From the UHGV virus genome UHGV-0070883: a stretch of DNA of 35,189 nucleotides. One strand, 5' to 3'. Each line of letters begins with the position of its first letter. Within the stretch, counting starts at the first letter, position 1. The notes under the pieces are model-generated. The model saw only the letters and a list, made by a program, of their open reading frames with translations. It was not told the origin of the DNA and did no database searches. This document shows, piece after piece, positions 5,594-34,328 of the stretch. This DNA comes from a virus. The position numbers and the translations under genes were made by a program.

Positions 5594-5628
5594 ACCCGGC
5601 CTGTTAAACAATAACATATTAAAATAAT

Positions 5629-6396: not shown

Positions 6397-6397
6397 A

Positions 6398-9660: not shown

Positions 9661-10163
9661 AAACCATTCTTGATGCCTGCTGCGGGTCCCGCATGTTCTG
9701 GTTTAACCGCCGCCATCCTGATGTGGTGTTCATGGACCGCCGGGAGGAAACACACACGCTTTGCGATGGGCGCGCCTTGGAAATTAAGCCGGATGTAGTC
9801 GGAGATTTCCGGGCGATGCCTTTCAGCGACGGAACGTTTCGACTTGTCGTGTTCGACCCTCCGCACTTGCTCCACGCCGGGGAATCGTCATGGCTGGCCA
9901 GGAAGTACGGAAAACTGGACCGGGAGACCTGGCGGGAGGATTTGTCCGCCGGGTTCCGGGAGTGTTTCCGGGTGCTGGAGCCGGGAGGAATCCTGGTGTT
10001 CAAGTGGTGCGAGGATCAGATTTCAACGGCAAAAGTGCTGAAACTGGCCAGCCGGGAACCTTTGTTCGGGCACCGCCGCGGAAAGACTATCTTCCTCGTT
10101 TTCATGAAATCTACAACCCCAACTGACGCTTTTTTGATATGCCACGCAAACCAACATCTTTAA
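9657..10163 (+). CDS. Small SAM-dependent methyltransferase, putative DNA amino-methyltransferase (motif I ILDACCGS, DPPH motif-IV-like)
   Basis: GTG at 9657 is preceded by AGGAGG, and the track's 9633 start would overlap the upstream gene. ILDACCGSRMFWF, the acidic residue in VVFMDRRE, VVFDPPHL and RVLEPGGILVF together fit a Rossmann-fold methyltransferase. The target, DNA or otherwise, is inferred only. Confidence 0.45.
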   Translation: MKTILDACCGSRMFWFNRRHPDVVFMDRREETHTLCDGRALEIKPDVVGDFRAMPFSDGTFRLVVFDPPHLLHAGESSWLARKYGKLDRETWREDLSAGFRECFRVLEPGGILVFKWCEDQISTAKVLKLASREPLFGHRRGKTIFLVFMKSTTPTDAFLICHANQHL

Positions 10164-10663
10164 TTCCACGGACGCACCGGGAACTGTGCGAAATAGCAGA
10201 ACGCTGGCTTATGGGAACTAAACGTTGCCGGGTAGCGATCGCTGAACCGAATTGCATTATTACTGAAGAGAGGCCTGACGCCATAGGGTTTGGCGGATAT
10301 GCGAGCGTTCTTGTGGAGGCAAAAACCAGCCGAGCGGACTTTTTGGCAGACCTTAAAAAGCCGTTCCGCATCCATCCTAAAAAAGGAATGGGTATGTATC
10401 GGTATTACATATGCGAGCCGGGAGTCATCACTTTTGATGACGTGCCGGGACTTTGGGGATTACTGTATGTTCTCCCTGGCGGAAGGGTTCGGGAAATCCG
10501 ACCCAGCGGCCGCTTCCCTGATATAAACCGCGCCGCAGAAATAAGCCTTTTGACAGCGTGTCTATACATCCAGAAACCGTTAAAGATCAATACTGTTCAA
10601 GGCAGAAAAATACAGCTCTCACCCACATTTGGCGAAGGAGTAAAAGAGACAGAAGGGTTATAG
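10139..10663 (+). CDS. PD-(D/E)xK nuclease-fold protein (174 aa)
   Basis: EERPDAIGFGGYASVLVEAKTSRADF gives D...E-x-K with typical spacing. It overlaps the methyltransferase gene by 25 nt. Confidence 0.4.
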   Translation: MPRKPTSLIPRTHRELCEIAERWLMGTKRCRVAIAEPNCIITEERPDAIGFGGYASVLVEAKTSRADFLADLKKPFRIHPKKGMGMYRYYICEPGVITFDDVPGLWGLLYVLPGGRVREIRPSGRFPDINRAAEISLLTACLYIQKPLKINTVQGRKIQLSPTFGEGVKETEGL

Positions 10664-10666
10664 GAT

Positions 10667-11677
10667 ATGGAATACATCAATATACCACTTTACGTTATCC
10701 GCTCCAATGAGTACATCGGCGCCGATCCCACCCAGAGGGCCACCTGGCTTTCCCTCGTAGCCTGGTCCTGCGACCAGGAGAACATGGGACGGATTGCCGG
10801 GGCCAGGTCCTGGGGAGATCGCCGCTGGATGCAGTCTTGCGGGGTCATGGCCTCCGAGGTAGCCGAGTCCTGCGGATTGTACCACTGGGACGGGGACGAT
10901 CTTGTCATTTCTTTTTATCCTGCTGACGCCCAGCGAGAAATTGAGCGCAAAAGAGAAATTGCGCGTGCCAATGGCAGGAAGGGAGGCCGGAAACCAACGT
11001 CGGAACCTATGCCGGAAACCAACGTTGGCTCCAACATAGGAAACCAACCTTGGATAGCAAATGACACTCCGTCGGAAAGCGAAAAGAAAGGAAAAGAAAA
11101 GAAAGGGAATAGAGAGGGAGAAACTACTACGGTGGACAGTACACCGGGGGAAGAGCCGTCCACTGCTCCTGCGCTGCCTGCCTCTCCTTTCCCGGATCGG
11201 GAACGCTTGAACGACGTCCGGGGGATGCGCTGCGCCGACAACCATGCGGACCTGGGATCTTCTCCCGGCGCTGCCCGGTTCGTGGCAGCGTGCCTGGACA
11301 TCAATCCGTCCTGGGGCCGGACGATACCAACCGCCATTGAGACGGCGGCCGCGCTTGAGGCGTACCGGTCCGCGCAGGGGCGGGTGACGATGCGGGACAT
11401 GGAGATGCTCAAGGCTTACTACTCCAGCGGCTTGACGCACGACCGGAGCAATAAGGCTTTTTGGCGTCCGGACAGCCGGAAGAAGTTTTGGGAGTGCTTC
11501 GGCGACGTTTTGACGCATGCCGACAGGTGGGCTAAGGAGACGCGTTGGAAGCCGGCAGCAGCCCGCAAGAAACCGAAGCCCGAAGAACCACGGCAGCCGG
11601 AAGGGCCCGTTGTGGATGTCGCGGACGCTGCGGCGGAGATCGCATCTCTGCGGGAGGAAATGGGACTGGGGGGATGA
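10667..11677 (+). CDS. Hypothetical protein (336 aa), possibly replication-associated
   Basis: Long ORF with a low-complexity Ser/Pro/Gly/Glu middle linker and a basic C-terminus. The assignment rests on its position between the recombination genes and the packaging genes. Confidence 0.5.
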   Translation: MEYINIPLYVIRSNEYIGADPTQRATWLSLVAWSCDQENMGRIAGARSWGDRRWMQSCGVMASEVAESCGLYHWDGDDLVISFYPADAQREIERKREIARANGRKGGRKPTSEPMPETNVGSNIGNQPWIANDTPSESEKKGKEKKGNREGETTTVDSTPGEEPSTAPALPASPFPDRERLNDVRGMRCADNHADLGSSPGAARFVAACLDINPSWGRTIPTAIETAAALEAYRSAQGRVTMRDMEMLKAYYSSGLTHDRSNKAFWRPDSRKKFWECFGDVLTHADRWAKETRWKPAAARKKPKPEEPRQPEGPVVDVADAAAEIASLREEMGLGG

Positions 11678-12733: not shown

Positions 12734-13255
12734 TTTGACAGGAAAAAGAAAGCATCACCCACAACCAAAAGAAAGCCGGGGCGGCCGAGTCTCTACACCG
12801 AGGATTTAGCCCAGGAGATCGCCCTCCGGCTCGCCAACGGCGAAACCATGAAAGCCATCTGCGCCGACGGGCACATGCCGGACGTCTGGACCGTCTGGCA
12901 CTGGCGGGAAACCAGGCCGGAGTTTTCCAAACTCATTCAACGCGCGCGGGAAGCGCAATCGGAAGCTTTGATTGACGCCTGTCAGGAGCTGGCCGACGAG
13001 GCCGCGAAAGTCGCCCTCGACCCGGAATGCGGTTCCGCCGCCGTCGCCGCCAAAAAGCTGGCCATTGAAACGCGGCTGAAAGTCGCCGCCCGATTCGCGC
13101 CGGAAAAATTCGGCGACCGGGTCCGTCAGGATGTCGCCGGCGTTCCCGGCGCGCCGCTGGAACGGAAAATCACCCTGGACCCCGAGCAGCTGGCCCAGCT
13201 GCAGGAAGACGAGAAAACCGCGCTGGAAACCATCGCCGGCAAACTCCACGCTTAA
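12734..13255 (+). CDS. terS: Terminase small subunit. The start is uncertain: the conserved N-terminal HTH motif lies upstream of the first ATG at 12848, and a TTG at 12734 is the nearest in-frame candidate
   Basis: In-frame translation upstream of 12848 gives SLYTEDLAQEIALRLANGETMKAICADGHMPDVWTVWHWRETRPEFSKLIQRAREAQSEAL. This matches the well-known TerS N-terminal pattern (Y-T-x-E-L-x-x-x-I-x-x-x-L-A-x-G-E-S...TVYRW...ARARE). The frame is open back to 12659. Confidence 0.65.
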   Translation, partial: FDRKKKASPTTKRKPGRPSLYTEDLAQEIALRLANGETMKAICADGHMPDVWTVWHWRETRPEFSKLIQRAREAQSEALIDACQELADEAAKVALDPECGSAAVAAKKLAIETRLKVAARFAPEKFGDRVRQDVAGVPGAPLERKITLDPEQLAQLQEDEKTALETIAGKLHA

Positions 13256-13327
13256 CAGACCAGGACACGCCTCCCCGTCAGCTTCTTCCTCCGCCATGTC
13301 CTCCGCCTGGATCCCTATCCCTGGCAG

Positions 13328-14635
13328 GTGGAGGCCATCAAGGCGTTGTCCCTCGGCAAGCTGACCCTGGGAGGGAAAAGCGTGGCTCTGGTTGCTCCCA
13401 ACGGATCCGGCAAGACGAGCAACTGCATCGCTCCGGCCATCCTGTACTTCCTTACCTGCTTCCCGCGGGGTCAGGTGCCGGTTACGTCGTCGTCGTGGAT
13501 GCAGGTGGAAAAGCAGCTCTTTCCCGCGCTCCGCCGCTACATGGACAACCCTTTCTTTGACGGCTGGACATTCAACAAAACCGAGATTCGCACGCCGGAG
13601 GGAGGCTTTGCCGTGGGCTTCTCGACCGACAACGCCGGCCGCGCGGAAGGATGGCACCCGAAAATCTCGCCCGACGTGGACCCCGTCTTTTACGTCCTCG
13701 ACGAGGCTAAAACCATCCCGGACTCCATCTTCACCGCCGTTTCCCGCTGCACGCTCTTCCACGCGTTCATTACCTCGTCACCTGGGGCCGATTCCGGCAC
13801 CTTCTACGACTGCTTCCACAAAAATTCATCCCTCTACTACAAGATCCGCGTCAAATACGAGGATTGCCCCCACATTGAGATCAATGACCCGGGCAAGGCC
13901 GAGCGCCTGAAAAAAGAATACGGCGAGCAGTCCTCCTTCTACCGCTCCGCCATCCTCGGCGAATTCACGGACCTCGACGGTCAGTCCGTCATTCCCCGGC
14001 GCGCCCTCATGGATCTGGTCAACAACCCGCCTCCCTTTCTGGACACCGGGGAGACCTGCGGCGGCTTCGACTTCGCGGCCGGAGGCGACGAAAACGTCTT
14101 CGCGGCCGGGCAGGGCAACCGATTCTTCATCGCCGACCACTGGTCGGACCCGGACACCGTAGGAGCGCGCGGACGGTTCCGCCGCAGGGCGTCCGAACTC
14201 GGCATCCCCGCCGACCGCATTTACGCGGACGGAGACGGCCTTGGACTACCCATCATTGACGACTTCCGCGCCGAGGGCTTCCCGGTGCACTCCTACCGGG
14301 GCGGTTTCCCGGCAGACGATACGCAGGCCTTTGTCAACCTCCGCGCCCAGGCGTGGCGGGCCCTGGCCCGAGCCATCGAAGAAAAGGAACTCATCCTCGA
14401 CATTGACGAGGACACGATTGAGCAGCTGGTAGCGCCCCGGCTCCAAACCGACGCGATCGGCCGCGTCAAAATCGAAAGCAAGGAAGACATGGCGAAACGG
14501 GGCGTCCGTTCTCCCGACCGCGCCGACGCCCTCGTCATGGCCTGGCACGCGCGCCGGCACAGCGGACTGGCCCGGACGCTGGGAGCCTGGTACTCACGTC
14601 CCGTGTCATCCAAACGCGCCATCGGGAGATATTAG
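13328..14635 (+). CDS. terL: Terminase large subunit (ATPase/nuclease)
   Basis: 435 aa. Walker A APNGSGKT and Walker B-like VLDEA. It follows terS in the same reading frame, separated by a single TAA, and uses a GTG start. Confidence 0.85.
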   Translation: MEAIKALSLGKLTLGGKSVALVAPNGSGKTSNCIAPAILYFLTCFPRGQVPVTSSSWMQVEKQLFPALRRYMDNPFFDGWTFNKTEIRTPEGGFAVGFSTDNAGRAEGWHPKISPDVDPVFYVLDEAKTIPDSIFTAVSRCTLFHAFITSSPGADSGTFYDCFHKNSSLYYKIRVKYEDCPHIEINDPGKAERLKKEYGEQSSFYRSAILGEFTDLDGQSVIPRRALMDLVNNPPPFLDTGETCGGFDFAAGGDENVFAAGQGNRFFIADHWSDPDTVGARGRFRRRASELGIPADRIYADGDGLGLPIIDDFRAEGFPVHSYRGGFPADDTQAFVNLRAQAWRALARAIEEKELILDIDEDTIEQLVAPRLQTDAIGRVKIESKEDMAKRGVRSPDRADALVMAWHARRHSGLARTLGAWYSRPVSSKRAIGRY

Positions 14636-14682
14636 GATTGACAACATATCAACATATCCGTATATGAAGATATGTAATCAAT

Positions 14683-14756
14683 CGCAGGGTGGTGAAACGG
14701 TATCACGCGGGGTTCCTGTCCCCGAGTAGGAGGTCCAATTCCTCCCCCTGTAACCA
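14683..14756 (+). tRNA. Phage-encoded tRNA-Arg, anticodon CCU (reads AGG), 74 nt with encoded CCA
   Basis: Manual cloverleaf:
- Acceptor: CGCAGGG/CCCTGTA, with a C1-A72 mismatch and a G2-U71 wobble.
- D arm: U8 and G9, D-stem GTGA/TCAC, D-loop AACGGTA with A14, G18, G19 and A21.
- Anticodon arm: stem CGGGG/CCCCG perfect, loop TTCCTGT with U33 and G37.
- Variable loop: AGTA.
- T arm: T-stem GGAGG/CCTCC perfect, T-loop TCCAATT with T54, C56 and A58 but C55 in place of U.
- 3' end: discriminator A, then CCA. Confidence 0.55.
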
Positions 14757-15006
14757 CCTTTTCTTTCGCTTCCGGCTCAGGTTCAACGCATTAAAAAATA
14801 TCCTCAACGCCCCGAAGCTGGTCGCCCAACAGGAGACCAGAATCAAGGAGCTGGAGACAGACCTAGCCCGGCGAGCCCTGACGGAACAAAGCCGGCAGCC
14901 CAACCGTCCCCAATGGTACGAGTACTGGGACCCGCTGCAGGGTGCCGACTTGAGCACTCTTGTGGAGGCCAGGAATGAAGCCCGGCGGGGAGCCTTTGCC
15001 CGGCAA

Positions 15007-16140
15007 ATGCTGATCTGGGATGAAATCATTTATTCGGACGGGCTTCTGGGCATGCTCTACTCCCGCTTAATCGAAAGCGTCGCCATGCAGGGCTGGAAGA
15101 TTGACGCCGCGGACGCCAGCCCGGAGTCCCAGCGCCAGAAAAACGCCCTGGAAGAATTCTACCACTCCGTCAACGGGCTGCAGCAGTCTTTTGGACAGCT
15201 GGCTTCCGCCATGTTTTATGGATACGCCCACCTCCAATACATCGAGGATTCATGGGGCCGCCGATTTGAATTCATCCCGCAGCGCTATTGGGTGAGGCCG
15301 GGAGTGTTGAACGAGTGGCAGTTCAACCCACAGTGCTATATCGGCGTCGACACCGGGGAAAGCGTGGAAGACGAAACGCTCGTCGTGATGGAACACCAGT
15401 ATCCCATCCTGTTCCCGGCTGCCCGCGCTTCTTTTGAGCGCAACCACGCAAAAATCACGTGGGACAACCACATGGACCGCTACGGAAGCGCCCCGGTCAT
15501 CATCACCGCCCCCAAGGACGCGAGTCCCGCCGTCATGGACGCGCTGGAACGGGCCTGCGAACAGCTTAAATCAGGCGCCTCTATCGTGCTGCCTCCTGAC
15601 TGCAAGGCGGAACCGCTCAAGGCGTCCAACATCAACGAAAACTATTTTCTCTCGCGCATCAACATGGCCGACAAGGACCAGGTGCGTTTTGTGATGGCCG
15701 GAACCCTGACGGTCCTGAACGAATCAGGATCAGGCACGCTGGCCGGGTCCGCCCATACGGACAGCTGGAATGCGGTGGTATCCGCCGTCTGCTCCAAAGT
15801 GGCGGAAGCGTTCAACACCGCCATCAGCCCGCTTATATTGGGAGACGGCGAACCGCTGGCCCGCCTCCACATCACCTTTGACACCGTCCAGACGCCATTG
15901 CAGAAGGCCGAGGAAATCGCCGCCCTTGCGGACGGAGGCGTCCGTCCGGAGAAAACCGAAATCGAAGAAAAGATCGGCATGTCGATCGAGGACGCCAGGG
16001 AGCCCGTGCCGGCGGCGGCAGTCAACAGGGATGGCCCCGCATCCCTCATTCCGCCCGACGCCTACGAACAGCTGCAGCAGATGATTTACGACGGCCTCAT
16101 GAAAGGATTTACCGATGATCAGTTCCAGACAATTCAATGA
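15007..16140 (+). CDS. Portal protein. Coordinates are given from the first in-frame ATG after the tRNA. The track ORF 14689-16140 overlaps the tRNA, and the true start may be a non-canonical codon between 14757 and 15006
   Basis: Large ORF immediately after terL and before the prohead protease/scaffold gene, with a size appropriate for a portal. No motif-level confirmation is possible without tools. Confidence 0.5.
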   Translation: MLIWDEIIYSDGLLGMLYSRLIESVAMQGWKIDAADASPESQRQKNALEEFYHSVNGLQQSFGQLASAMFYGYAHLQYIEDSWGRRFEFIPQRYWVRPGVLNEWQFNPQCYIGVDTGESVEDETLVVMEHQYPILFPAARASFERNHAKITWDNHMDRYGSAPVIITAPKDASPAVMDALERACEQLKSGASIVLPPDCKAEPLKASNINENYFLSRINMADKDQVRFVMAGTLTVLNESGSGTLAGSAHTDSWNAVVSAVCSKVAEAFNTAISPLILGDGEPLARLHITFDTVQTPLQKAEEIAALADGGVRPEKTEIEEKIGMSIEDAREPVPAAAVNRDGPASLIPPDAYEQLQQMIYDGLMKGFTDDQFQTIQ

Positions 16141-17683: not shown

Positions 17684-17905
17684 CTCTATTAACCCCAACC
17701 AACAGAAAGACCAAGAACAAGGGCTACTCCATTTTGCTCCGCCGTTCAGTTCACCGATGTCCTGACCTCCTATTCCGCGGGGTCCGGGAACACAGAAGAG
17801 AACTCCATCATCAGCCGCATCGCTCCGATCGTCCCGGTCTATGACCTGAATTTCCAGTACAAGGTCTGGGACACGGAATCGGCCTTCACCGTCCAGCCCA
17901 TCCAG

Positions 17906-18646
17906 GTGGGACCGGGCGAACCTCCCCGCCAGACCGTCCTGCGCGGAAGAAACGAAACCGACACCCTTCAGGGCTACGGCTTGACGCTGCCCATCCCTGA
18001 CGCCTTGCTGGGCGTCAACCGGGAAAAGGCGCAGGCCATCACCCTGGCGGAATACAAACTCATCGAATCCCAGTTTGTGACGTCGTACGAATACGAACGC
18101 GCCAAGCTTCTGATGAGCCAGCTTCCGGCCGCTTCCGGGATGGGTGACTGGGCCAACCAGCAGAAAAACCCGTTGGCGGATCTGGACCAGGCGATCCTGT
18201 CCATCAACGCCGCAACCGGACACATGCCGAACACGATTGTCTTCGGCATCAACGCGTGGCAGCTGCTTCGCTCCAACACGCTCGCGCGCCAGGTGGTTTC
18301 CTTCAACAGCGTCGGCCTGTTCAACGAAGACCTGCTTCGCATGGCTCTGATCCGGCCCATCCGGGATATTTACATCGCCTCCATGCCGTACCGCGACGCT
18401 TCCGGCGACGCGAAAACCATCATGGAAAACGAAGTCTATGTCCTGTACAAGGAAGACTCCCCGACGCAGTTCGACGCCTCCGCCGTCAAGACCTTCGGTC
18501 TTTCCGGCAAGCTTCGCCGCGAAGTCATCACCGAATACAAGCCGACGCCGGCCTTGACGCTCGTCACCAACCGCGTCTACTCGCTGACCAAGCTGACGAA
18601 CCCCAGCGCCATCGTCCGCATCGACGCGACGGCCTCCGCCGATTAA
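17906..18646 (+). CDS. Major capsid protein, lambda gpE family. The true N-terminus very probably lies upstream: the frame is open from 17693 and carries conserved sequence
   Basis: SGMGDWANQQKNPLADLDQAILSINAATGHMPNTIVFGINAWQLLRSN aligns with the lambda E block GTEWSKRDKSTYDPTDDIEAYALNASGVVNIIVFDPKGWALFRSF as I recall it. The upstream in-frame RIAPIVPVYD...AFTVQPIQVGPGE aligns with lambda YVSPIVSGEV...EFTPGYVKPKHE. Confidence 0.7.
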   Translation: MGPGEPPRQTVLRGRNETDTLQGYGLTLPIPDALLGVNREKAQAITLAEYKLIESQFVTSYEYERAKLLMSQLPAASGMGDWANQQKNPLADLDQAILSINAATGHMPNTIVFGINAWQLLRSNTLARQVVSFNSVGLFNEDLLRMALIRPIRDIYIASMPYRDASGDAKTIMENEVYVLYKEDSPTQFDASAVKTFGLSGKLRREVITEYKPTPALTLVTNRVYSLTKLTNPSAIVRIDATASAD

Positions 18647-21941: not shown

Positions 21942-21995
21942 CTTTTTTCAAGCATCAGGGCTACTACATACGATCCTATCTTTACCAACCGCAAC

Positions 21996-22607
21996 GTGAC
22001 GCCGCAGATTACCGGCGTTCTGGCTATTTTCCTCCCCGACGGCATCAAGGTGACCGAGGACGAGGGAGCCTCTTACGTTACCGGCCCCGGCCAATATCCC
22101 GAACCTCCCGCCAATCCTCCGGCCGATCCGACAGCCGGGCCCGAAGCGCCTTGGGTGAGTTTCGGGCTGCTGGGCGCGTTCCAGTCCGTTGCCACGCAGG
22201 TCGAGGGGGAAGTGACGCGCTTTTACGGAGGCAATCTTGGCTACCGGCAGCAGCGCAAGAACACGACGACCGGCAAGCGGATGACTTTCACCACGCCGGA
22301 TATGTCGCCCGAATACTTCCAGCTGGCGTTTGCCCTGGGGGCGGCTCCCGCCAACGGCGAGGAATCGACCACCGTCGGCCATGGCGGCGATAATAAAATC
22401 TCGGGCCATATCCGTTTCTGGTATCAGAACGATGTAGGGACAGTCTACTTGACTGGCGTGGCTCACGGGGAGCTGCGTTTGCTGCAGGACCCCGAACACA
22501 CCACGGCGATCGCTTCACCCCAGTTCGAGTTTGAAATGGATTATCGCGGCGACTACAACTTTACGCCCTCCAATGTGCAGGACGTGACCACGACGCCGGG
22601 TCCCTGA
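21996..22607 (+). CDS. Virion structural protein (203 aa; possible tail component), GTG start
   Basis: ORF. The frame is open upstream to 21942 but has no ATG. Confidence 0.45.
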   Translation: MTPQITGVLAIFLPDGIKVTEDEGASYVTGPGQYPEPPANPPADPTAGPEAPWVSFGLLGAFQSVATQVEGEVTRFYGGNLGYRQQRKNTTTGKRMTFTTPDMSPEYFQLAFALGAAPANGEESTTVGHGGDNKISGHIRFWYQNDVGTVYLTGVAHGELRLLQDPEHTTAIASPQFEFEMDYRGDYNFTPSNVQDVTTTPGP

Positions 22608-22724
22608 CGTGTTTCACCAGGGGGCGGATGACGCCCCCGCATCCTTGTTTTTTTCAGGCAGCAGGCAGGTAAATATGATATCAGGACCGTCACGGGGCTG
22701 AACCAGTCCCTGGTCGTCCGCGTC

Positions 22725-24662
22725 GTGGATTTCCAGGGCGATCCCGTCGATATGAGCGGCGTCACCCTGCGCGGAGCCGTCCGCCTCAAGACGGGCGTGA
22801 CGGAGTTCGGATTTTCCCGAGACGACGAGGGCAACGGCGTGATTTCCTGGGAGTCGGTGCCTGCGGGCATGTGGTCCTATGACGTTTTCATGGACGACGG
22901 CAGCGAAGAAAGCCCCCTTCTCTACGGTTGCTTTGTTTCTTCCGGCCGGGTAACGCCGGACTTGCCCGGCGAGCAGCAGGCCGTGGCGGGCGCGGTCGTC
23001 GTGCAGCTGCCGGAAGGAAGCGGTTGCGTGCAGGTGGTGCTTGATAATGCGTCCAGCGCCGCCTGGTACGCGGAACAGGCCAAGAAGTACGCGGAGAATT
23101 TTAGCCTGTCCGTCGACGAAGTCACCACTGGGGAACCGGGGACGCCCGCCGCCGCGGAAGCCGTCAAAGGGGAGGCTGCCGGCTCCTATAAGCTCTCCTT
23201 CACCATTCCCCGCGGGGATGTTGGTCCTCAGGGACCGTCAGGCCCGCAGGGTGAACGGGGTGAAACCGGCCCCGAAGGGCCGCAAGGCCCACGCGGCGAA
23301 ACCGGGGAACGTGGACCTCAGGGAGATACGGGCGAGCAGGGACCGAAGGGAGAGACAGGCCCGGCGGGGCCCCAAGGCCCGGAGGGCCCCCAGGGGCCGG
23401 AAGGTCCGGCAGGACCCCAGGGACCACAAGGGGAAAAGGGAGAGCCCGGGACGCTGACGTCCAACGTCGGCGACGTCAACATCGGGGGAGCCCTGACCGC
23501 TGAATCGGCTACTATCAACGGGCCTCTGGTCGTCAACAACCCGGACGGAAGCGGAAGCGCCGGAACCCTGAATCAGATTTACGGAATCACCAGGTTTTAT
23601 CAGTCCGTTGATCTTCGTTCGGGCGGCTGGCTGCGCGGGACATTCATGGTAGAGACCGGCATCCTGAATATTTCCCAGGGCGCCAGCTTCAACTGCGCGG
23701 GGACATCCACGTTTTCAAGCGCCATCAACGCCAATGGAGGCGTCAACATCCCGCTGGCCGTGGGAGCGCCGACCAATGAATCCGGCGTCAACCGCCTGTA
23801 TGCCGCGGGCATGGGAGGCGCAGCCAATGCTTATACGGCGGCGGCTTTCCTGAATACGGACACGCTGACAACTACCGGCACGGCAACGGTGACTAAAACG
23901 GTTCCCTACCAGATGGCCCGCATAGGCATTTCCGCGGGCGCTCACACGACTATTCAGGCCCCTTTTGAAGGCCCCAGTTCCCAATGGAATTATTCTTCCT
24001 GGGCCGGCTTTTCATTTGTCTGGCGGGCCACGGCCGCGGCGAAGATAACGATGGGCATCGGACGGGGGGCGAAAACAATCAGGACAGACCTTACCACCGA
24101 CTCCTACACGATTATTCCGGGCAATGACCTGGCATTTAATTCCGGGGAGATTCTGGACATCACCTTTGACAACGTGCGCGATACGGCGCGCAACGGCTAT
24201 ACGGTGCGCGTGCGTGAAATTTATGCGCTGACGTCCGCCGATGGATGGCAGGTCAAGACGACGACCAGCTTTATCCCGGCGACGCAAAACGAGCCCGTCC
24301 CGTGGACGGTGTGCAAGATTATTTACCAGCAGCAGACGGTTGCCAACAGCAGCGTTTATGAAAACCTGGGAGGCCTCTGGCTGCTGGTCACGGGGGCACA
24401 GACCAACAACCTGTTCAAGATCGCCACCTGCCGGGGCGTCTCCAATTTTGAGACCGGCGTCGGCATTTCCAGGTGGGTGACGGATGTGATCAACACCACC
24501 AGCGGCACGGCTTCCGTTTATGCGGGGCCCGGAGAATATGCCTACTACCAGCCGGGCAATGTGAACCCCCTCTTTTACGGGTTGAACGCAATAGGAACGA
24601 ATGCCGTTGAATCCGAGGCAACCGCCGCTTTTGAAGATATTAACGTGCCGATAGAATCATGA
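22725..24662 (+). CDS. Tail fibre protein with a collagen-like (G-X-Y)n triple-helix region
   Basis: 645 aa, GTG start. Residues about 164-244 are uninterrupted [79 protein letters not shown]. The C-terminal part is a large Gly/Ala/Thr-rich beta-rich domain. Confidence 0.7.
23214..23456 (+). repeat. Collagen-like GXY coding repeat (period 9 nt, about 27 triplets)
   Basis: Seen directly inside the fibre ORF. Confidence 0.8.
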
Positions 24663-25063: not shown

Positions 25064-25064
25064 T

Positions 25065-25355: not shown

Positions 25356-25359
25356 CACC

Positions 25360-29185: not shown

Positions 29186-29316
29186 TCAACTAATAGCGAA
29201 CAATTTACCTTTCCAAAATCAGGAGTACCAAAAAAGAAATAACCGTTGAAGTTAAAAGTACCTTTGACACCAAAGGAATTCAGGAAGCAAAGAAGCAGAT
29301 TGAGACTCTTGGCAGG

Positions 29317-31617
29317 ATGGAGGCCGGAGGCGACCTTTCCGCCTATGACAAGGCCCTTGAAAACGCCAATGAGAAGCTAGGGGAATTCGCCGATAAGATG
29401 ACGGATGCCGGCTCACGCATGCGGGCAGCCTTCCAGGACAACCCCGGACTTGAGGCGTTTATTGACGACGCGACCGGAGCCGTATTGACGGCGGAAGAAC
29501 TCAAAAAGAAATTTGAACAGATTGATGACGTCGCGGAAGTCCTCAATAACAAAATGTCCGATTTGGATCTGGGGGCGAAGTGGGGCGAAAACCTTGATGA
29601 AAACCTCCAAAAGATACTCGACGGCTACAATAAGGAAATGGCCGCGGCCGACAAGGCCACGGAAAAAGCGGCCGCTGCGGAGGCCCGGAAGCAACAGCAG
29701 GCTGCGGCAACCGTGGAACGGATGGAAGCCAACAACCGCCGCGCCGCCGCTTCCTATGAGGAATTAGAGGCGGAGCTTGCTTCATATATTGCCAAGTTGG
29801 AAGAAGCCCGGAAGGCTGGGAACAACGTGGCACAGGCGGATGCCTTGCGGAATATCCAGGAATTGGAAAAAAGACTCCGATCCGCCAGTGCGGGCAGTCA
29901 AAAGGCAACCAGGAGTATCAAGAATATGGGGCAGGGAGCCTTGCAGGCTGCCTACTTTTTTGACGACTTGCAATACGGCATCAGGGGTATCATGAATAAT
30001 ATTCCAGGGCTTGTGATGGGCTTCGGAGGCGGGGCAGGGCTGGCCGGGGCCATCTCCATTGCCACCCTTGCCGGAGCGAAGCTTTACGAGTGGATGGGGA
30101 AGACGGAAGACAAGTCGGCGGATCTTGCAAAAAAAATGAAGGAGCAGAGCAAAGAGATTGCCGAATCATATCGGAAGTCTCTTCGGGCAAGTTATCAGGC
30201 TTTGCAGGAATTCAACCAGCAAGAACGCACCAAAACCGTTAATAAAGAGTATCAAAACTATGTAAAGGGCATTACCCGTGAATTCGAATATCAAACGGAA
30301 GAACTTGAAAAACAAATTCGCTTGAGACGGGAGGAAGCGGCCCGTAAGAAAGGAATTGATACACGCCAGGCAGAGCTTGAGCGCGTCAACCTGGAAAATG
30401 ACTACCAGCAAGGAAGAATCACCAAGAGGCAACGAGATTATGGCCTGATGATGGTGGATCAGAATCTGGACCAGAAAATCCGCCAGCGTGATTTAAGCGT
30501 AGAGCAAGCTAACTATATGGATATGGGGAAACAGCTTGCGGAGGCAGTCAAGGCCAGAGATGCGGCCGAAGCTCATGCTTTTGATATGCAGTTTAAACAA
30601 GGGAACCTTCCTTCCCTTCAAAATATCATGGGGCTTTTGCAGCAGCAAGAACGCATTCAACAAAGGATAGATAGTCTTAATAGCAATTTATTAAGAATAC
30701 AGGAATTACGAGAAATTGGAACTTGGCGTTCTCCCTCAGAACAGGAAGAATATGAAGATGCAGTAGTTAGAGAGCAACAATTTATAAAAGCTCGTAATTC
30801 AGCTCAGGAAGAAGGGAATGCCGCACAATTAAAATTGAATGAATATCAGGACTTGTTAAGAGCCGGAGGGGTGAATCTTGAATTCGACTATAGACAAGGA
30901 ACTGACATAAGCAGTCGCTTCAAACAAGCAATTAGTGCAGTAGAAGAGTTTAAGAAGAATACGGATGCCGCAAAAAAACAGTTTGATGATTTAACTAAAA
31001 AGGCCGGTTCATTAGGTGATGCTATGGCTTCTGCGGAGGCGTCCATAAAAGACATGGAACAAACCGAAGCCCTTCAAAATCAAATAGACGCCGGCAAGGT
31101 CAAATCATTTAACTTGCAAAGAGACAGGGAAGAAGCCGAGGAAGTCCGAAGAAATGAAGAGAAAATAAAGAAGGCTCGTGAACAGGCCGAAAGGGAGGCG
31201 AAAAAGCAGACTGCCGAGAGGCAGCAGGCAATGATCCGCGGCATTACCCTTGAAGGTGTTCCCGAACATCCTACCGCCAAACAACGCCCCCGGATTTCTG
31301 CCGCCCGCGAAGCCTTGAACGAAGGGAAGAAACGCCTTTCGGAAAGCATTTCGGCAACAGATACAGAAATAGATCCAAGCGAACTTCTGGGAGCGTTTGA
31401 CGCTGTGGAAAAAGTATTGGTAGAAAGAGGACAATACACAAAAAAGGCGTTTGATCATTTGGTCTCAATTATTAGAGCGCAGGCCGACAAAATAAATGCC
31501 CAGGAAGTGAATACTCAAAACTATATAGATGACAAAATAGAAAGACTACTGAAAGAGCAGCAACAAACCAACACAAGATTGAGAACTGGAATAAACAGGC
31601 TTGCCGGAGGCTATTAA
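29317..31617 (+). CDS. Tail tape measure protein (766 aa)
   Basis: Long, highly charged alpha-helical/coiled-coil sequence with a Gly-rich hydrophobic segment (IMNNIPGLVMGFGGGAGLAGAISIATLAGAKLY) typical of TMPs. Composition shifts from GC-rich to AT-rich partway through. The frame is open upstream to 29197. Confidence 0.65.
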   Translation: MEAGGDLSAYDKALENANEKLGEFADKMTDAGSRMRAAFQDNPGLEAFIDDATGAVLTAEELKKKFEQIDDVAEVLNNKMSDLDLGAKWGENLDENLQKILDGYNKEMAAADKATEKAAAAEARKQQQAAATVERMEANNRRAAASYEELEAELASYIAKLEEARKAGNNVAQADALRNIQELEKRLRSASAGSQKATRSIKNMGQGALQAAYFFDDLQYGIRGIMNNIPGLVMGFGGGAGLAGAISIATLAGAKLYEWMGKTEDKSADLAKKMKEQSKEIAESYRKSLRASYQALQEFNQQERTKTVNKEYQNYVKGITREFEYQTEELEKQIRLRREEAARKKGIDTRQAELERVNLENDYQQGRITKRQRDYGLMMVDQNLDQKIRQRDLSVEQANYMDMGKQLAEAVKARDAAEAHAFDMQFKQGNLPSLQNIMGLLQQQERIQQRIDSLNSNLLRIQELREIGTWRSPSEQEEYEDAVVREQQFIKARNSAQEEGNAAQLKLNEYQDLLRAGGVNLEFDYRQGTDISSRFKQAISAVEEFKKNTDAAKKQFDDLTKKAGSLGDAMASAEASIKDMEQTEALQNQIDAGKVKSFNLQRDREEAEEVRRNEEKIKKAREQAEREAKKQTAERQQAMIRGITLEGVPEHPTAKQRPRISAAREALNEGKKRLSESISATDTEIDPSELLGAFDAVEKVLVERGQYTKKAFDHLVSIIRAQADKINAQEVNTQNYIDDKIERLLKEQQQTNTRLRTGINRLAGGY

Positions 31618-32128: not shown

Positions 32129-32183
32129 ATAAACCACTAACCATTTTACAAGCAGCAGGAACCACGACATCACCATCAATGAT

Positions 32184-34328
32184 TTGCTGGATCTCAAGCC
32201 GTCCCGCCTGACCCACGACCAGCAAAGTTTTGCCGCCTCCACCATTACCGCGGTTTATCCCGTCCGAACGCTGGGGGAAGTCTTGCCCTTCCGGCAATTC
32301 GACACCGTCACCATCTCCCAAAACGGGAACACCATTCTTGCGGGCCTCGTTTCCAGCATCGAAAAGACCTACAGCGGTTCATCCCGTGCCTGGAAAATCG
32401 TCTTTTCCGATCCCTGGTATTACCTGGACAACTGCTTTGCCCTGGATTCCGAATGGAAGCCGGTCTTTTCGATGTGGCAAAGCACCGGCGGCGGAAATGA
32501 AATCATCCCTAAAATAAGCATTTCCTCCGCCCTTTCCCGGGTGCTGAATCTGGCCAAACACCACCCCGCGGACTACGAAATGCGGATCAGCGACGACAAA
32601 ATGCTGATCCCATGGAACACCTCATGCGACACCCTTGGAAGTCTGCTCCAATCCATCCGCCACTGGTCGCCCCGCATGGTCACGTACTACGACTACAGTG
32701 GCGCGCGGCCCAAGCTGATCATCACGGACTATGACGTCCTGACGCCTATCTCCCTGCCATTGCAGCCCTCCAACGATGTTAAAGCCATGGACGTTTCCCT
32801 TGTCCCACGCGCCGACCTCGTGCCTCCCTGCGTGGCGATTGTCGCCGAAACCACCGGAAGCAACGGCTATCGCGTCTCTTACCTGTCCAAATACCCGGAA
32901 GACGGAGACCCGACCTTACCGCATTCCATCGTTTACCGAACGTCCGTAGACTTCTATTATTCTAAGTTTAATTCTACAGGAGAACCGGTAGAAGATCCTC
33001 AACCGGTACAGGGAACCAGGGCCGGCAGTCTGTCCTACCAGCGCATGAAAGTGACGGGGACCCGGATTGACCAGAACGACATGATCAACAGTTTCTGGAA
33101 AAATCATTTCCCATGGATGAAAGACGTTGGAGCCATTGCGGCCTATGACCCAACTCCGGAAATCACCGGGAAGCCCTGGGACGGAACGGAGGAAGACAAG
33201 CCGAAAGGCTATAATACCACGGCCACGGGCTATGAACTGACGGACGGACAAATTCATACCAAATCCATCCGGCCGCAGTGGTGCAATGCCACCATCAAGC
33301 AGCGTCTCGCCATCCCGGAAAGCGCCCCTGCCAAGTGGCGGGAGAAATTCAAGAATGTGGGGACCTTGCAGGGTGTGCCCTGCTTTTGGGAAGAATTCTC
33401 GGTGGATCTGGTCACCATGGACCGCCCCTTTGCGAGCTACCCCATCGACGGCATCTACAACGGGGAGCAGCCCTCCAACGGGCCGGAAGAAGGGGAATCG
33501 CCGGAACCGTCGGAAGGAGTGCCCTATGGGGACATTGCCAAAACGGTGTGGGAATCCATGCAGGAATTGCCCTGGGACGGATCTATATCCTTTGTCGCGC
33601 TGGGGGATGCTCAAACGCGTCAATACATGGGCCGCCGCGTCTCCCTGCTGGGAGGAAATCCCGCATGGCAGAATATTAACACCATGATACAGACGGTGAA
33701 CCGCGACCTGCAGACCAACGTCATTACGTTGTCCTACGGCGCGCCGGAACAGCTGGGAATTGAAGAATGGGTAGAATTGAAGCGCGTGAATGCCACATCA
33801 CGCAGATCCTCCACGCTGGAAAACATGCAGGGCGCGCCGGAATCGACGGAATACGCCTTTGACCCCAAGCCGGAATCCCCGACCATCAGCCAGCACATCA
33901 CGACGGCGACGGGGGAAGCCACGCCCGCGCCGGAATACGGCTTCCAGGTGCGGGTGCAGAAAGATACTGAGGGAGCCGTCACCGGGGCGCAAATCAAGCC
34001 CGGCGCGCTCTACCTGAACGGAAATCTGCTCGGCAAATACCCGCAGGGGGGCAGTTCCGGGTCCTCGTGGGTGCAGCTCACCCAAACCAGCGGGGAAGTA
34101 TGGCTCAACGTTCACTTTGACCAGGACGCCAAATTGACGGGCGTTGACGTCTCCGGCATTCCGGGGACGGTGTACCCAATCATGCTTGCCGAAGAAAAAC
34201 CGGGCGTCAACTTCGACTATTCCTTCCTGATTGCCGACATCGAAGATGACCAGGTGACGCAATACGCCCTGGGAATGATACAGATCCCGGTCTTCGGAGG
34301 AACCTTCTACCCCTACGGACCAGCATAA
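32184..34328 (+). CDS. Large tail protein (714 aa; distal tail, tip or host-specificity protein by position after the TMP), TTG start
   Basis: Long ORF immediately downstream of the TMP and the moron. No catalytic motif recognised. Confidence 0.5.
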   Translation: MLDLKPSRLTHDQQSFAASTITAVYPVRTLGEVLPFRQFDTVTISQNGNTILAGLVSSIEKTYSGSSRAWKIVFSDPWYYLDNCFALDSEWKPVFSMWQSTGGGNEIIPKISISSALSRVLNLAKHHPADYEMRISDDKMLIPWNTSCDTLGSLLQSIRHWSPRMVTYYDYSGARPKLIITDYDVLTPISLPLQPSNDVKAMDVSLVPRADLVPPCVAIVAETTGSNGYRVSYLSKYPEDGDPTLPHSIVYRTSVDFYYSKFNSTGEPVEDPQPVQGTRAGSLSYQRMKVTGTRIDQNDMINSFWKNHFPWMKDVGAIAAYDPTPEITGKPWDGTEEDKPKGYNTTATGYELTDGQIHTKSIRPQWCNATIKQRLAIPESAPAKWREKFKNVGTLQGVPCFWEEFSVDLVTMDRPFASYPIDGIYNGEQPSNGPEEGESPEPSEGVPYGDIAKTVWESMQELPWDGSISFVALGDAQTRQYMGRRVSLLGGNPAWQNINTMIQTVNRDLQTNVITLSYGAPEQLGIEEWVELKRVNATSRRSSTLENMQGAPESTEYAFDPKPESPTISQHITTATGEATPAPEYGFQVRVQKDTEGAVTGAQIKPGALYLNGNLLGKYPQGGSSGSSWVQLTQTSGEVWLNVHFDQDAKLTGVDVSGIPGTVYPIMLAEEKPGVNFDYSFLIADIEDDQVTQYALGMIQIPVFGGTFYPYGPA

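What the first reader, a model, noticed from the sequence alone, without database searches (positions are those of the whole stretch)
14683..15006. Phage-encoded tRNA-Arg(CCU) between terL and the portal gene, colliding with the predicted portal start
A 74-nt sequence folds by hand into a near-canonical cloverleaf with anticodon CCU (rare AGG codon). It has perfect D, anticodon and T stems, conserved U8, A14, G18, G19, A21, U33, T54, C56 and A58, and an encoded CCA. It has unusual features: a C1-A72 mismatch and C55. Phage tRNAs for AGG/AGA are common codon-usage compensators. Its presence means the 483-aa track ORF for the portal, which starts at 14689, cannot be right. The portal frame has no ATG, GTG or TTG until 15007, although codons 14758-15006 look protein-like.
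Basis: seen in the sequence. Interest (0 to 1): 0.55.

Follow-up and report, generated by a model that had tools for sequence, protein, structure and literature searches.

The report
Phage initiator-like tRNA reading AGG starts
An Akkermansia phage carries a tRNA built like a bacterial initiator tRNA but with an anticodon for AGG, and at least six of its essential virion genes appear to begin with AGG instead of ATG, which looks like a natural start-codon reassignment.

Summary
The tRNA is real. ARAGORN places tRNA(CCU) at 14683-14756 and Rfam scores it 48.7 bits. It sits at the same place in 105 related Akkermansia phage loci, and eight base pairs show compensatory changes.

It does not look like an ordinary elongator tRNA-Arg. 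The C1xA72 mismatch is invariant (105/105). G2:C71, C3:G70 and A73 follow the initiator pattern, and the anticodon stem has the G:C run typical of bacterial initiator tRNAs.

The 483-aa portal ORF is wrong. Portal conservation begins exactly at AGG 14779, 22 nt after the tRNA. That codon is AGG in 105 loci and ATG or TTG in 3.

The same pattern holds for six more genes:
- terL (13262)
- major capsid (17720)
- a tail protein (21957)
- a collagen-like fibre (22656)
- a 798-aa tail protein (29221)
- probably a 723-aa protein (32157)

A relative without the tRNA has ATG or TTG at the aligned positions. Start AGGs are never swapped for other Arg codons, whereas internal AGGs often are.

Best reading: a phage-encoded initiator tRNA that makes AGG a start codon for late genes. 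An engineered E. coli i-tRNA(CCU)/AGG pair works well. I found no natural precedent. Nothing has been tested experimentally.

The parts
14638..14666 (+). Promoter-like site upstream of the tRNA: TTGACA (14638-14643), a 17-nt spacer, then TATATG (14661-14666).
   Evidence: Read from the sequence. TTGACA is nearly invariant in about 100 loci while the surrounding intergenic sequence varies. A similar TTGACA-N17-TATGTT lies between terL and the portal in the tRNA-less relative L001. The consensus scan did not call it because the second hexamer lacks the final T. Function is inferred.
14683..14756 (+). tRNA with anticodon CCU and initiator-type features: C1xA72 mismatch, G2:U71 (G2:C71 in all other variants), C3:G70, A73, G29-G31:C39-C41, encoded CCA.
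   Evidence: ARAGORN. Rfam 48.7 bits. In 16 distinct variants, 8 pairs change on both sides and pair 1:72 is never a standard pair. In 105 loci, C1/A72 and the CCT anticodon are invariant.
14757..14778 (+). Non-coding spacer between the tRNA 3' end and the portal start codon.
   Evidence: Its length and sequence vary among relatives, with indels that are not multiples of three. An in-frame TAG lies 4 codons before the AGG in L020, L021, L025 and L042.
14779..16140 (+). Portal gene (Portal_Mu, PF06074), 453 aa, starting at AGG 14779.
   Evidence: Pfam and PHROG hits. Homologues P0014 and P0037 start at the aligned codon. The aligned codon is ATG in L002 and TTG in tRNA-less L001. It is AGG in 105 loci, ATG in 1 and TTG in 2. 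Variable sites by codon position between the AGG and ATG 15007 are 27/14/66.
13262..14635 (+). Terminase large subunit, 457 aa, starting at AGG 13262, two codons after the terS stop.
   Evidence: The AGG is invariant in 96 loci while the flanking codons vary. L034, L073 and L001 have an ATG within one or two codons of the aligned position. The conserved PVSFFLRHVLRLDPYPWQ lies upstream of the first canonical start, GTG 13328. PHROG terminase hit.
17720..18646 (+). Major capsid protein, 308 aa, starting at AGG 17720.
   Evidence: L001 and L034 have ATG at the identical aligned codon. An in-frame stop lies 5-9 codons upstream. There is no canonical start for 62 codons, and these are conserved. 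AGG in 103 loci, ATG in 3. Codon-position variability is 15/14/53. The PHROG major head profile aligns from residue 13 to profile position 14.
21957..22607 (+). 216-aa tail-region protein (possibly the major tail or tube protein), starting at AGG 21957.
   Evidence: The AGG is invariant in 76 loci. In-frame stop 5 codons upstream. The tRNA-less L119 and L120 have ATG at the aligned codon (MATTLSPDYANRNV against RATTYDPIFTNRNV). The function label is a guess from gene order.
22656..24662 (+). Collagen-repeat tail fibre protein, 668 aa, starting at AGG 22656.
   Evidence: The AGG is invariant. The upstream T-run changes length out of frame. The next in-frame AGG (22683) is CGG or CGA in relatives, which marks it as an internal Arg codon and serves as a control. 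L119 has ATG at the aligned codon. Pfam and PHROG hits.
29221..31617 (+). 798-aa tail protein (tape-measure-like by position), starting at AGG 29221.
   Evidence: Twenty-one related loci, and phage DTMo-2021a, have ATG at the aligned codon (ATG GCC ACC AAG AAA GAA against AGG AGT ACC AAA AAA GAA). An in-frame ATG at 29317 is an alternative, shorter start.
32157..34328 (+). 723-aa tail protein, probably starting at AGG 32157.
   Evidence: The AGG is invariant in about 20 loci, with an in-frame stop 7-8 codons upstream. This is the weakest case: TTG 32184 is only 9 codons downstream, and no relative with a canonical codon at this position was found.

Best explanation
The 74-nt gene at 14683-14756 encodes a phage initiator tRNA whose anticodon is CCU instead of CAU.

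Proposed mechanism:
- It is transcribed from a promoter-like site just after terL, as the 5' leader of the portal message, and is cut out by the normal tRNA-processing enzymes.
- Its C1xA72 mismatch, G2:C71, C3:G70 and A73 would direct formylation. They would also keep it away from EF-Tu and peptidyl-tRNA hydrolase.
- The G:C run at the bottom of the anticodon stem would license binding to the P site of the 30S subunit.
- It would therefore pair with AGG in the P site and start translation there.

In this phage, AGG replaces ATG as the start codon of at least six late genes (terL, portal, major capsid, two tail proteins and the 798-aa tail protein) and probably a seventh. Virion production would then depend on the phage's own tRNA. 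This could act as a translational lock on late genes, comparable to stop-codon recoding with suppressor tRNAs in other phages.

Shown here:
- The tRNA, its conserved initiator-type features and its covariation.
- AGG at the conserved N-terminal boundary of these genes.
- Interchange of AGG with ATG or TTG in relatives.
- Co-occurrence of the tRNA with AGG starts.

Inferred:
- Expression and processing of the tRNA.
- The amino acid it carries. Arg is the most likely, from C35 and U36, but U20 replaces the A20 that is an identity element in E. coli.
- Formylation.
- The regulatory purpose.
For: 1. The tRNA is real and under selection. ARAGORN and Rfam both call it. Eight stem pairs show double compensatory changes, and the D, anticodon and T stems are 100% paired.

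2. It has initiator features.
- C1xA72 occurs in 105/105 loci while pairs 2:71, 4:69 and 7:66 covary.
- G30:C40 is invariant. Pairs 29-31:39-41 are GC/GC/GC in 76 loci, AU/GC/GC in 20 and GC/GC/UG in 9.
- The acceptor arm, CGCAGGG...CCCUG(U/C)A-A-CCA, resembles the E. coli tRNAfMet arm CGCGGGG...CCCCGCA-A-CCA.
- Identity is 66-67% to tRNAfMet against 55-58% to E. coli tRNA-Arg(CCU).
- The meaning of these features is taken from PMC6393288.

3. AGG marks the start of conservation in seven genes. Upstream there are in-frame stops or frame-breaking indels. Downstream there are 9-62 conserved codons before any canonical start. Those codons vary mostly at third positions.

4. AGG and canonical start codons replace each other at the aligned codon.
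- Portal: ATG in L002, TTG in L001.
- Capsid: ATG in L034 and L001.
- terL: ATG in L034, L073 and L001, within one or two codons of the aligned position.
- Tail protein and fibre: ATG in L119.
- The 798-aa protein: ATG in 21 loci.

5. Start AGGs are never replaced by CGN or AGA (143 AGG, 0 other Arg). Internal AGGs of the same genes are (237 AGG, 246 other Arg). Fisher p = 2e-37, not corrected for phylogeny.

6. The tRNA and AGG starts occur together.
- All 105 loci that cover the site intact carry the tRNA, and all have AGG starts.
- The 59%-identical phage L001/L119/L120 has no tRNA and only canonical starts.
- L073 (63% identity) has the tRNA, a portal AGG and a terL ATG.
- In IMG/VR, a pattern for the tRNA hits exactly the 45 contigs that carry this portal.

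7. The mechanism has experimental precedent. An engineered E. coli initiator tRNA with a CCU anticodon plus an AGG start was the best non-canonical pair in all six strains tested (bioRxiv 10.64898/2026.04.16.719103). In wild-type E. coli, AGG is a non-cognate start whose use is suppressed by raised IF3 levels (PMC6868393).

8. The phage looks active. It exists as a deposited phage genome (CP084202.1) and as a circular 32.8-kb replicon (pJ30893), both with the tRNA and AGG starts.
Against: - There is no experimental evidence: no N-terminal peptides, ribosome profiling or tRNA charging data.
- The bacterial initiator pair A11:U24 is absent; the tRNA has U11:A24.
- The three G:C pairs are not invariant. 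Pair 29:41 is A:U in 20 loci and 31:39 is U-G in 9.
- U20 rather than A20 makes charging by ArgRS uncertain. From my own knowledge, basic aminoacyl groups such as Lys are poor substrates for the formyltransferase in E. coli.
- C55 replaces the near-universal U55 in most copies.
- The host's own tRNAfMet and tRNA-Arg(CCU) could not be retrieved for comparison.
- tRNA gain looks like a single evolutionary event, so the presence/absence correlation rests on one tRNA-less lineage.
- Two contigs (L145, L163) have AGG starts but only the last 14 nt of the tRNA next to the portal.
- The cases at 32157 and, to a lesser degree, 29221 have nearby canonical alternatives.
Confidence: 0.8

Rival explanations
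1. It is an ordinary elongator tRNA-Arg(CCU) that supplies a rare-codon tRNA for phage genes. The AGG-start pattern would then be read at low efficiency by the host initiator tRNA, or be unrelated to this tRNA.
For: The anticodon is CCU, and ARAGORN labels it tRNA-Arg. Phage tRNAs for AGA and AGG are common (my own knowledge). The late genes contain 30 internal AGG codons. A 1x72 mismatch alone does not fully prevent EF-Tu binding if formylation is slow (PMC6393288), so some elongator activity is not excluded.
Against: - The C1xA72 mismatch is kept in 105/105 copies while neighbouring pairs covary. An elongator tRNA would be expected to restore the pair.
- AGG is rarer in late genes (0.55% of codons) than in early genes (1.3%).
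- AGG is a non-cognate start whose use is suppressed by raised IF3 levels in E. coli (PMC6868393). That makes it unsuitable for a major capsid gene without a matching initiator.
- Start AGGs are never exchanged for other Arg codons.
- The tRNA is closer to E. coli tRNAfMet than to argW.
Confidence: 0.08
2. The tRNA has a dual role. It initiates at AGG and also decodes internal AGG codons.
For: Initiator tRNAs with a 1x72 mismatch can enter elongation when formylation is limiting (PMC6393288). Internal AGG codons exist in phage genes.
Against: Nothing in the sequence requires it. Internal AGGs are few and are freely exchanged with CGN codons. The host presumably has its own tRNA-Arg(CCU); this was not tested.
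Confidence: 0.25
3. The tRNA-like element is mainly a processing or recombination signal: an RNase P cleavage site that defines the 5' end of the portal mRNA, or an attachment site. The AGG-start genes would then be translated by some other non-canonical route.
For: The tRNA sits in the 5' leader of the portal gene, downstream of a promoter-like site. In L145 and L163 a rearrangement breakpoint lies inside the tRNA 3' end, where integrative elements often recombine.
Against: - The anticodon CCU and the loop residues U32, U33, C34, C35 and U36 are invariant in 105 copies and in the divergent L073. A pure processing signal would not need this.
- AGG starts occur in genes up to 17 kb from the tRNA, so the effect acts in trans.
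- The full set of aminoacylation-end features (A73 and an encoded CCA) is kept.
Confidence: 0.04
4. The genes have lost their start codons, so this is a decaying prophage. The AGGs would be degraded ATGs.
For: AGG is one substitution from ATG. Annotation pipelines call truncated proteins.
Against: - The same AGGs are fixed in more than 100 independent assemblies.
- The coding sequence downstream shows strong third-position variation and no disruption.
- The element exists as a deposited phage genome and as a circular replicon.
Confidence: 0.02

Closest known systems
Bacterial initiator tRNA (tRNAfMet, e.g. E. coli metZWV/metY)
   Same: C1xA72 mismatch, G2:C71, C3:G70, A73, a run of G:C pairs at 29-31:39-41 and an acceptor arm of CGC-GG...CC-GCA-ACCA. 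Identity to E. coli tRNAfMet is 66-67%. It is presumed to act in the P site to start translation.
   Different: The anticodon is CCU, not CAU, so it cannot be a methionine initiator for AUG. It has U11:A24 instead of A11:U24, G37 instead of A37 and C55 in the T loop. It is encoded by a phage.
Engineered orthogonal initiator tRNAs: the amber initiator i-tRNA(CUA) and i-tRNA(CCU) with an AGG start in E. coli (PMC6393288; bioRxiv 10.64898/2026.04.16.719103)
   Same: The same principle applies: an initiator tRNA body with a changed anticodon starts translation at the matching non-AUG codon. CCU/AGG was the best-performing engineered pair.
   Different: Those are laboratory constructs derived from E. 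coli metY. This one is natural, is encoded by a temperate Akkermansia phage, and is paired with AGG starts on the phage's own essential late genes. The amino acid carried is unknown in both cases.
Stop-codon recoding in phages with phage-encoded suppressor tRNAs (my own knowledge: Ivanova et al. 2014; Borges et al. 2022)
   Same: A phage-encoded tRNA changes how a codon is read, and the affected codons are concentrated in late or structural genes. Their translation therefore depends on the phage's own tRNA.
   Different: That system acts at elongation, on in-frame stop codons read by suppressor tRNAs. This one acts at initiation, on a sense codon used as a start codon. No in-frame stops occur in these genes.
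Ordinary phage-encoded tRNA-Arg for rare AGA/AGG codons
   Same: CCU anticodon and a location in a phage genome.
   Different: An invariant 1x72 mismatch, an initiator-like acceptor and anticodon stems, no AGG enrichment in late genes, and AGG used as a start codon.

Membership tests
tRNA (Rfam RF00005) | Cloverleaf that scores above the family gathering threshold. | tested here: met
   48.7 bits against 29, over the full-length model. ARAGORN call. Covariation in three stems.
Bacterial initiator tRNA | Mismatch at position 1x72 (C1xA72). | tested here: met
   CxA in 16/16 distinct variants and 105/105 loci, and also in the divergent L073.
Bacterial initiator tRNA | G2:C71 and C3:G70 (formyltransferase determinants) with A73. 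| tested here: met
   C3:G70 and A73 are invariant. G2:C71 occurs in 15 of 16 variants. The window itself has G2:U71.
Bacterial initiator tRNA | Three consecutive G:C pairs at 29:41, 30:40 and 31:39. | tested here: met
   Met in the window and in 76/105 loci. Twenty loci have A29:U41 and nine have U31-G39. G30:C40 is invariant.
Bacterial initiator tRNA | A11:U24 pair in the D stem. | tested here: not met
   U11:A24 in all 16 variants. That this pair is a hallmark is from my own knowledge.
Bacterial initiator tRNA | CAU anticodon and methionine identity. | tested here: not met
   The anticodon is CCU in 105/105 loci. It is therefore not a tRNAfMet, although it may work like an initiator.
Bacterial initiator tRNA | Formylation, IF2 binding and direct P-site binding. 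| not testable with these tools
   Needs biochemistry.
Elongator tRNA-Arg(CCU) | CCU anticodon. | tested here: met
Elongator tRNA-Arg(CCU) | Watson-Crick 1:72 pair, as in elongator tRNAs that bind EF-Tu. | tested here: not met
   CxA in every copy. E. coli argW has G1:C72.
Elongator tRNA-Arg(CCU) | A20 in the D loop, a major ArgRS identity element in E. coli (my own knowledge). | tested here: not met
   The D loop is AACGGUA, which gives U20. E. coli argW has A at that place. Identity rules in Akkermansia were not tested.
Codon-compensating phage tRNA | The cognate codon is enriched in phage, especially late, genes relative to the host. | tested here: inconclusive
   AGG makes up 0.55% of late-gene codons and 1.3% of early-gene codons. 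Host codon usage could not be obtained.
Phage stop-codon recoding system | In-frame stop codons in late genes plus a suppressor tRNA. | tested here: not met
   No internal stops in the seven genes. The anticodon is CCU.
Portal_Mu (PF06074), for the downstream gene | Pfam domain scoring above the gathering threshold. | tested here: met
   106.9 bits against 23.9.

The most novel reading that the evidence does not exclude
A temperate phage of Akkermansia muciniphila encodes its own initiator tRNA with a CCU anticodon and has converted the start codons of most of its key virion genes from ATG to AGG. This would be a natural orthogonal translation-initiation system, a start-codon reassignment. It would make late-gene translation depend on the phage tRNA, and it may start proteins with an amino acid other than methionine.
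Probability: 0.75. Interest if true: 0.93.

Novelty: categorically new. Interest (0 to 1): 0.9.

Why it matters
Translation in bacteria and their viruses is held to start with one initiator tRNA, tRNAfMet(CAU), at AUG, GUG or UUG. Initiator tRNAs with a changed anticodon are known only as laboratory constructs.

If this reading is right, it would matter in several ways:
- It would show that the start codon itself can be reassigned in nature.
- It would give a new way for a virus to gate its late genes.
- It would raise the question of which amino acid begins these proteins.
- It would explain why hundreds of database entries for this phage family carry truncated or tRNA-overlapping gene calls.
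- It would hand synthetic biology a naturally evolved orthogonal initiation pair.
- It would mean that gene finders restricted to ATG, GTG and TTG can systematically miss genes in phages that carry such tRNAs.

Tried and rejected
- **Mis-spaced tRNA pattern.** A scan of IMG/VR with one N too many found nothing. The corrected pattern found the same 45 contigs as the portal search.
- **Other phage initiator-like tRNAs.** I searched IMG/VR for tRNAs with a canonical initiator acceptor arm, three G:C pairs and a middle anticodon base other than A. The only hit was a chance match overlapping an ordinary tRNA-Met. No second family was found under that strict pattern.
- **More tRNA-less relatives.**
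  - Searching IMG/VR with P0037 gave only a contig already held.
  - The genome collection gave one locus.
  - The metagenome scan returned only the main family, at 79-96% identity.
  - The tRNA-less comparison therefore rests on one lineage (L001/L119/L120).
- **Start at the codon before the AGG.** AUC often precedes the AGG, so I considered it as the start. That codon varies within each gene (CTC, CGC and GCC; ACC, GTC, AGC and ATC) while the AGG does not. Relatives place ATG on the AGG position itself.
- **TTG 14950, GTG 14962 or ATG 15007 as the portal start.** Rejected, because 57-76 conserved codons with third-position variation lie upstream.
- **Automated codon threading.** It mis-aligned the first codon of terL for L001 and L034, and that of the 798-aa gene. 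I used the direct N-terminal alignments instead.
- **Partner proteins.** Pfam and PHROG scans of the remaining ORFs found no formyltransferase, synthetase or initiation factor.
- **Natural precedents in the literature.** Seven full-text searches found only engineered systems.
Full report
**The observation**

ARAGORN finds a single tRNA in the window, tRNA-Arg(cct), at 14683-14756 on the + strand. Rfam's tRNA model scores it 48.7 bits against a threshold of 29, full length, E = 1.2e-7. The minimum-free-energy fold is the cloverleaf.

These include the C1xA72 mismatch, C55 and the encoded CCA. The 483-aa ORF 14689-16140 does begin at a GTG inside the tRNA.

One statement is wrong. The portal frame does contain TTG 14950 and GTG 14962 before ATG 15007.

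**Context**

The window is essentially a whole temperate phage of Akkermansia muciniphila.
- It begins with the 3' end of a host tRNA, followed by an integrase (144-1340).
- It carries RecT and YqaJ recombination genes, a small terminase (12848-13255), a large terminase, a Mu-type portal (PF06074), a Mu-like protease, a major head protein and tail genes.
- It is 95-97% identical to the deposited Akkermansia phage DTMo-2021a (CP084202.1, 31,946 bp, spanning window 29-35189).
- It is also 95-97% identical to the circular 32.8-kb 'plasmid' pJ30893 of A. muciniphila JCM 30893.

**The tRNA is conserved and structured**

I collected 45 IMG/VR contigs, one GTDB genome, 60 metagenome contigs and several contigs found through protein look-ups. 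In every locus that covers the site intact, a tRNA(CCU) lies between terL and the portal. That is 105 loci, with portal identity of 63-97%.

Sixteen distinct sequences were aligned.
- On the cloverleaf, 8 of 21 pairs show changes on both sides.
- The D, anticodon and T stems are paired in 100% of cells.
- No shuffle or register shift comes close.

**It looks like an initiator, not an elongator**

The pair 1:72 is CxA in all 16 variants and in all 105 loci. Meanwhile the neighbouring acceptor pairs 2:71, 4:69 and 7:66 change in a compensatory way. So the mismatch itself is under selection.
- C3:G70 and A73 are invariant.
- G2:C71 holds everywhere except in the window's own variant, which has G2:U71.
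- The anticodon stem ends in G29-G30-G31:C39-C40-C41 in the window and in 76 loci. G30:C40 is invariant. Twenty loci have A29:U41 and nine have U31-G39.

According to PMC6393288, these are the features that define bacterial initiator tRNAs:
- The 1x72 mismatch with the 2:71 and 3:70 pairs is recognised by the formyltransferase. It also hinders EF-Tu and peptidyl-tRNA hydrolase.
- The three G:C pairs license the P-site steps of initiation.

The acceptor arm (CGCAGGG...CCCUGUA-A-CCA; CGCGGGA...UCCCGCA-A-CCA in L020) is close to that of E. coli tRNAfMet (CGCGGGG...CCCCGCA-A-CCA). I verified that E. coli sequence against all E. coli genomes. Overall identity is 66-67% to tRNAfMet and 55-58% to E. 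coli tRNA-Arg(CCU) argW.

Features that do not fit an initiator are U11:A24, G37 and C55. The anticodon CCU is invariant, and it differs from the initiator's CAU by a single base.

**Where the portal really starts**

Portal homologues were aligned.
- A 59%-identical protein (P0037) begins MIKTLKNLF, opposite the window's F-N-A-L-K-N-I-L.
- P0014 begins MFNALKN.

At the DNA level, P0014's contig (L002) has ATG exactly where the window has AGG 14779 (ggctcATGttcaac against ggctcAGGttcaac). It still carries the tRNA. P0037's contig (L001) has no tRNA and starts with TTG.

Across the family, the spacer between the tRNA and this codon varies in length (16-23 nt) and in sequence. Its indels are not multiples of three, and four loci have an in-frame TAG four codons upstream. 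From AGG onwards the sequence is conserved.

The codon is AGG in 105 loci, ATG in one and TTG in two. The 75 codons between AGG 14779 and ATG 15007 vary at codon positions 1/2/3 in the ratio 27/14/66, so they are translated. The portal is therefore 14779-16140 (453 aa). RefSeq's annotation of pJ30893 instead uses a CTG inside the tRNA's anticodon loop.

**The same pattern in other late genes**

- **Major capsid.** The tRNA-less L001 begins ATG-MPNNFCTAVQFTDVL. The window reads AGG(17720)-ATPFCSAVQFTDVL. An in-frame stop lies nine codons upstream, and there is no canonical start for 62 conserved codons. The codon is AGG in 103 loci and ATG in L034, L119 and L120.
- **terL.** AGG 13262 lies two codons after the terS stop and is invariant in 96 loci, while both flanking codons vary. 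L034, L073 and L001 use ATG there or one to two codons away. The conserved PVSFFLRHVLRLDPYPWQ precedes the first canonical start, GTG 13328.
- **A 216-aa tail protein.** AGG 21957 is invariant in 76 loci. L119 has ATG at the aligned codon.
- **The collagen-like fibre.** AGG 22656 is invariant and is preceded by a hairpin and a T-run whose length changes out of frame. The next in-frame AGG (22683) is CGG or CGA in relatives. L119 has ATG at the aligned codon.
- **A 798-aa tail protein.** The window has AGG 29221 where 21 relatives and DTMo-2021a have ATG.
- **A 723-aa protein.** AGG 32157 is invariant, but a TTG lies nine codons downstream and no relative with a canonical codon at this position was found. 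This case is only probable.

Gene callers consequently report truncated proteins. Among the homologues found, the capsid appears almost only as 246-aa or 278-aa fragments, in hundreds of contigs. Apart from one partial match, the full-length calls come only from the ATG-bearing L001 and L034 contigs.

**A control for codon identity**

Take the internal AGG codons of 14 late genes. In distinct relatives, the aligned codon is AGG 237 times, another arginine codon 246 times and a non-arginine codon 129 times. At the start positions it is AGG 143 times and ATG or TTG 4 times. It is never CGN or AGA. Fisher p = 2e-37, not corrected for shared ancestry. These AGGs are therefore not conserved as arginine codons. 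They behave like start codons.

**Distribution**

- The tRNA-less phage (L001/L119/L120) has canonical starts at all five comparable genes.
- L073 (63% portal identity) has the tRNA, a portal AGG and a terL ATG.
- L034 (81%) has the tRNA and AGG at the portal and the tail protein, but ATG at terL and the capsid.
- The main clade has six or seven AGG starts.

This reads as one gain of the tRNA just upstream of the portal, followed by the spread of AGG starts to other late genes. In IMG/VR, a pattern for the tRNA's D arm and anticodon hits exactly the 45 contigs that carry this portal.

**Mechanism and plausibility**

A. muciniphila is among the 'SD-scarce' bacteria (PMC10783764). Consistent with that, neither the ATG starts nor the AGG starts of this phage have Shine-Dalgarno sequences. 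Both share a similar -3 to -1 context (ATC or ACC). Start-site choice may therefore lean heavily on codon-anticodon pairing.

In wild-type E. coli, AGG is a non-cognate start, and raising IF3 levels specifically suppresses initiation from it (PMC6868393). An E. coli initiator tRNA engineered to carry a CCU anticodon initiates at AGG better than any other non-canonical pair tested. Stimulation was 35- to 402-fold in six strains, and in one strain it exceeded AUG (bioRxiv 10.64898/2026.04.16.719103). An amber initiator tRNA charged with glutamine likewise initiates at UAG (PMC6393288).

The proposed mechanism is therefore established in the laboratory. What is new here is a natural version encoded by a phage.

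A conserved TTGACA-N17-TATATG lies 16 nt upstream of the tRNA. A similar site sits between terL and the portal in the tRNA-less relative. This suggests the tRNA is made from the portal message's leader.

Three things remain inference:
- The amino acid carried. Arg is plausible from C35 and U36, but A20 is missing.
- Whether that amino acid is formylated.
- The biological purpose. A translational lock on late genes, analogous to stop-codon recoding, is my preferred guess.

**Rivals**

- **Plain rare-codon elongator tRNA.** This does not explain the invariant mismatch, the low AGG content of late genes (0.55% of codons), or the start-codon behaviour of the AGGs.
- **Pure processing or attachment signal.** This does not explain the invariant anticodon, or AGG starts up to 17 kb away.
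- **Decay of start codons.** This is contradicted by fixation in more than 100 assemblies with intact, selected coding sequence, and by the existence of phage and circular forms.
- **Dual initiator and elongator role.** This remains possible.

**Open problems**

Two contigs (L145, L163) have AGG-start portal and capsid genes but only the last 14 nt of the tRNA. Upstream of that lie about 500 nt of unique sequence and homologues of tail genes. This could be an element integrated into the tRNA gene, a rearranged tandem prophage, or a derivative that depends on a helper phage's tRNA. I could not resolve it.

The host's own tRNAs could not be retrieved. A strict search found no other phage tRNA with an initiator body and a non-A35 anticodon. 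Seven literature searches found no natural precedent.

**Verdict**

The tRNA is confirmed, and the annotated portal start is wrong. The best-supported explanation is a phage-encoded initiator-type tRNA(CCU) that makes AGG a start codon for at least six late genes. The comparative evidence is strong, but nothing has been shown experimentally.

Noticed in passing
L145:3341-3540 and L163:6010-6545 (junction next to the portal AGG): Two metagenome contigs keep only the last 14 nt of the tRNA before the AGG-start portal. Upstream are about 500 nt shared only by these two contigs (with TGTACAT repeats) and homologues of the window's tail genes at 29.2-32.1 kb. The breakpoint lies exactly in the tRNA 3' acceptor strand. 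This may be an element integrated into the phage tRNA, tandem prophages, or a tRNA-less derivative that needs a helper's tRNA.
   Followed up: partly
window 1-143: The window starts with GAATCCCTCCCGCTCCGCCA, the 3' end of a host tRNA gene. Repeated TGTACAT motifs (115-133) follow, then the integrase. This looks like the prophage attL. The deposited phage genome CP084202.1 spans window 29-35189.
   Followed up: partly
L071 (NZ_AP021899.1 pJ30893) 6791-8218, 5403-6710, 9887-10723: RefSeq annotation of a close relative starts the portal at a CTG inside the tRNA anticodon loop, terL at the downstream GTG, and the capsid at an internal ATG (278 aa). In the protein database, the capsid family appears almost only as 246-aa or 278-aa truncated calls, in hundreds of contigs.
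   Followed up: yes
window 22620-22655: A G+C-rich hairpin (GGGGGCG-GAUGA-CGCCCCC) followed by a U-run sits immediately before AGG 22656. It looks like a terminator. Among relatives, the U-run length varies out of frame.
   Followed up: partly
window about 25000-27000 (25608-26771): A low-GC stretch (47-52%, against about 60% around it) inside the tail region encodes a D12-class N6-adenine DNA methyltransferase. It is probably an inserted accessory gene.
   Followed up: no
window 9633-10163: A class I SAM-dependent methyltransferase of unknown substrate sits in the early region. Whether it acts on DNA or RNA, possibly the tRNA, is unknown.
   Followed up: no
window 14734-14740 (T loop) and the aligned positions in relatives: The T loop has C55 instead of the near-universal U55 in 100 of 105 copies. 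Five copies have U55, and the divergent L073 has a canonical UUCGACU loop. Position G19 also varies in three single loci.
   Followed up: partly
L034 (IMGVR_UViG_3300010163_000397) and L073 (GCA_965336545.1): These are intermediate states. Both carry the tRNA and a portal AGG but use ATG for terL, and L034 also uses ATG for the capsid. This suggests that AGG starts spread stepwise from the gene next to the tRNA.
   Followed up: partly
L001:1588-1616, against window 14638-14666: The tRNA-less relative has a similar TTGACA-N17-TATGTT site between terL and the portal. The tRNA therefore seems to have been inserted downstream of a promoter-like site that was already there.
   Followed up: no
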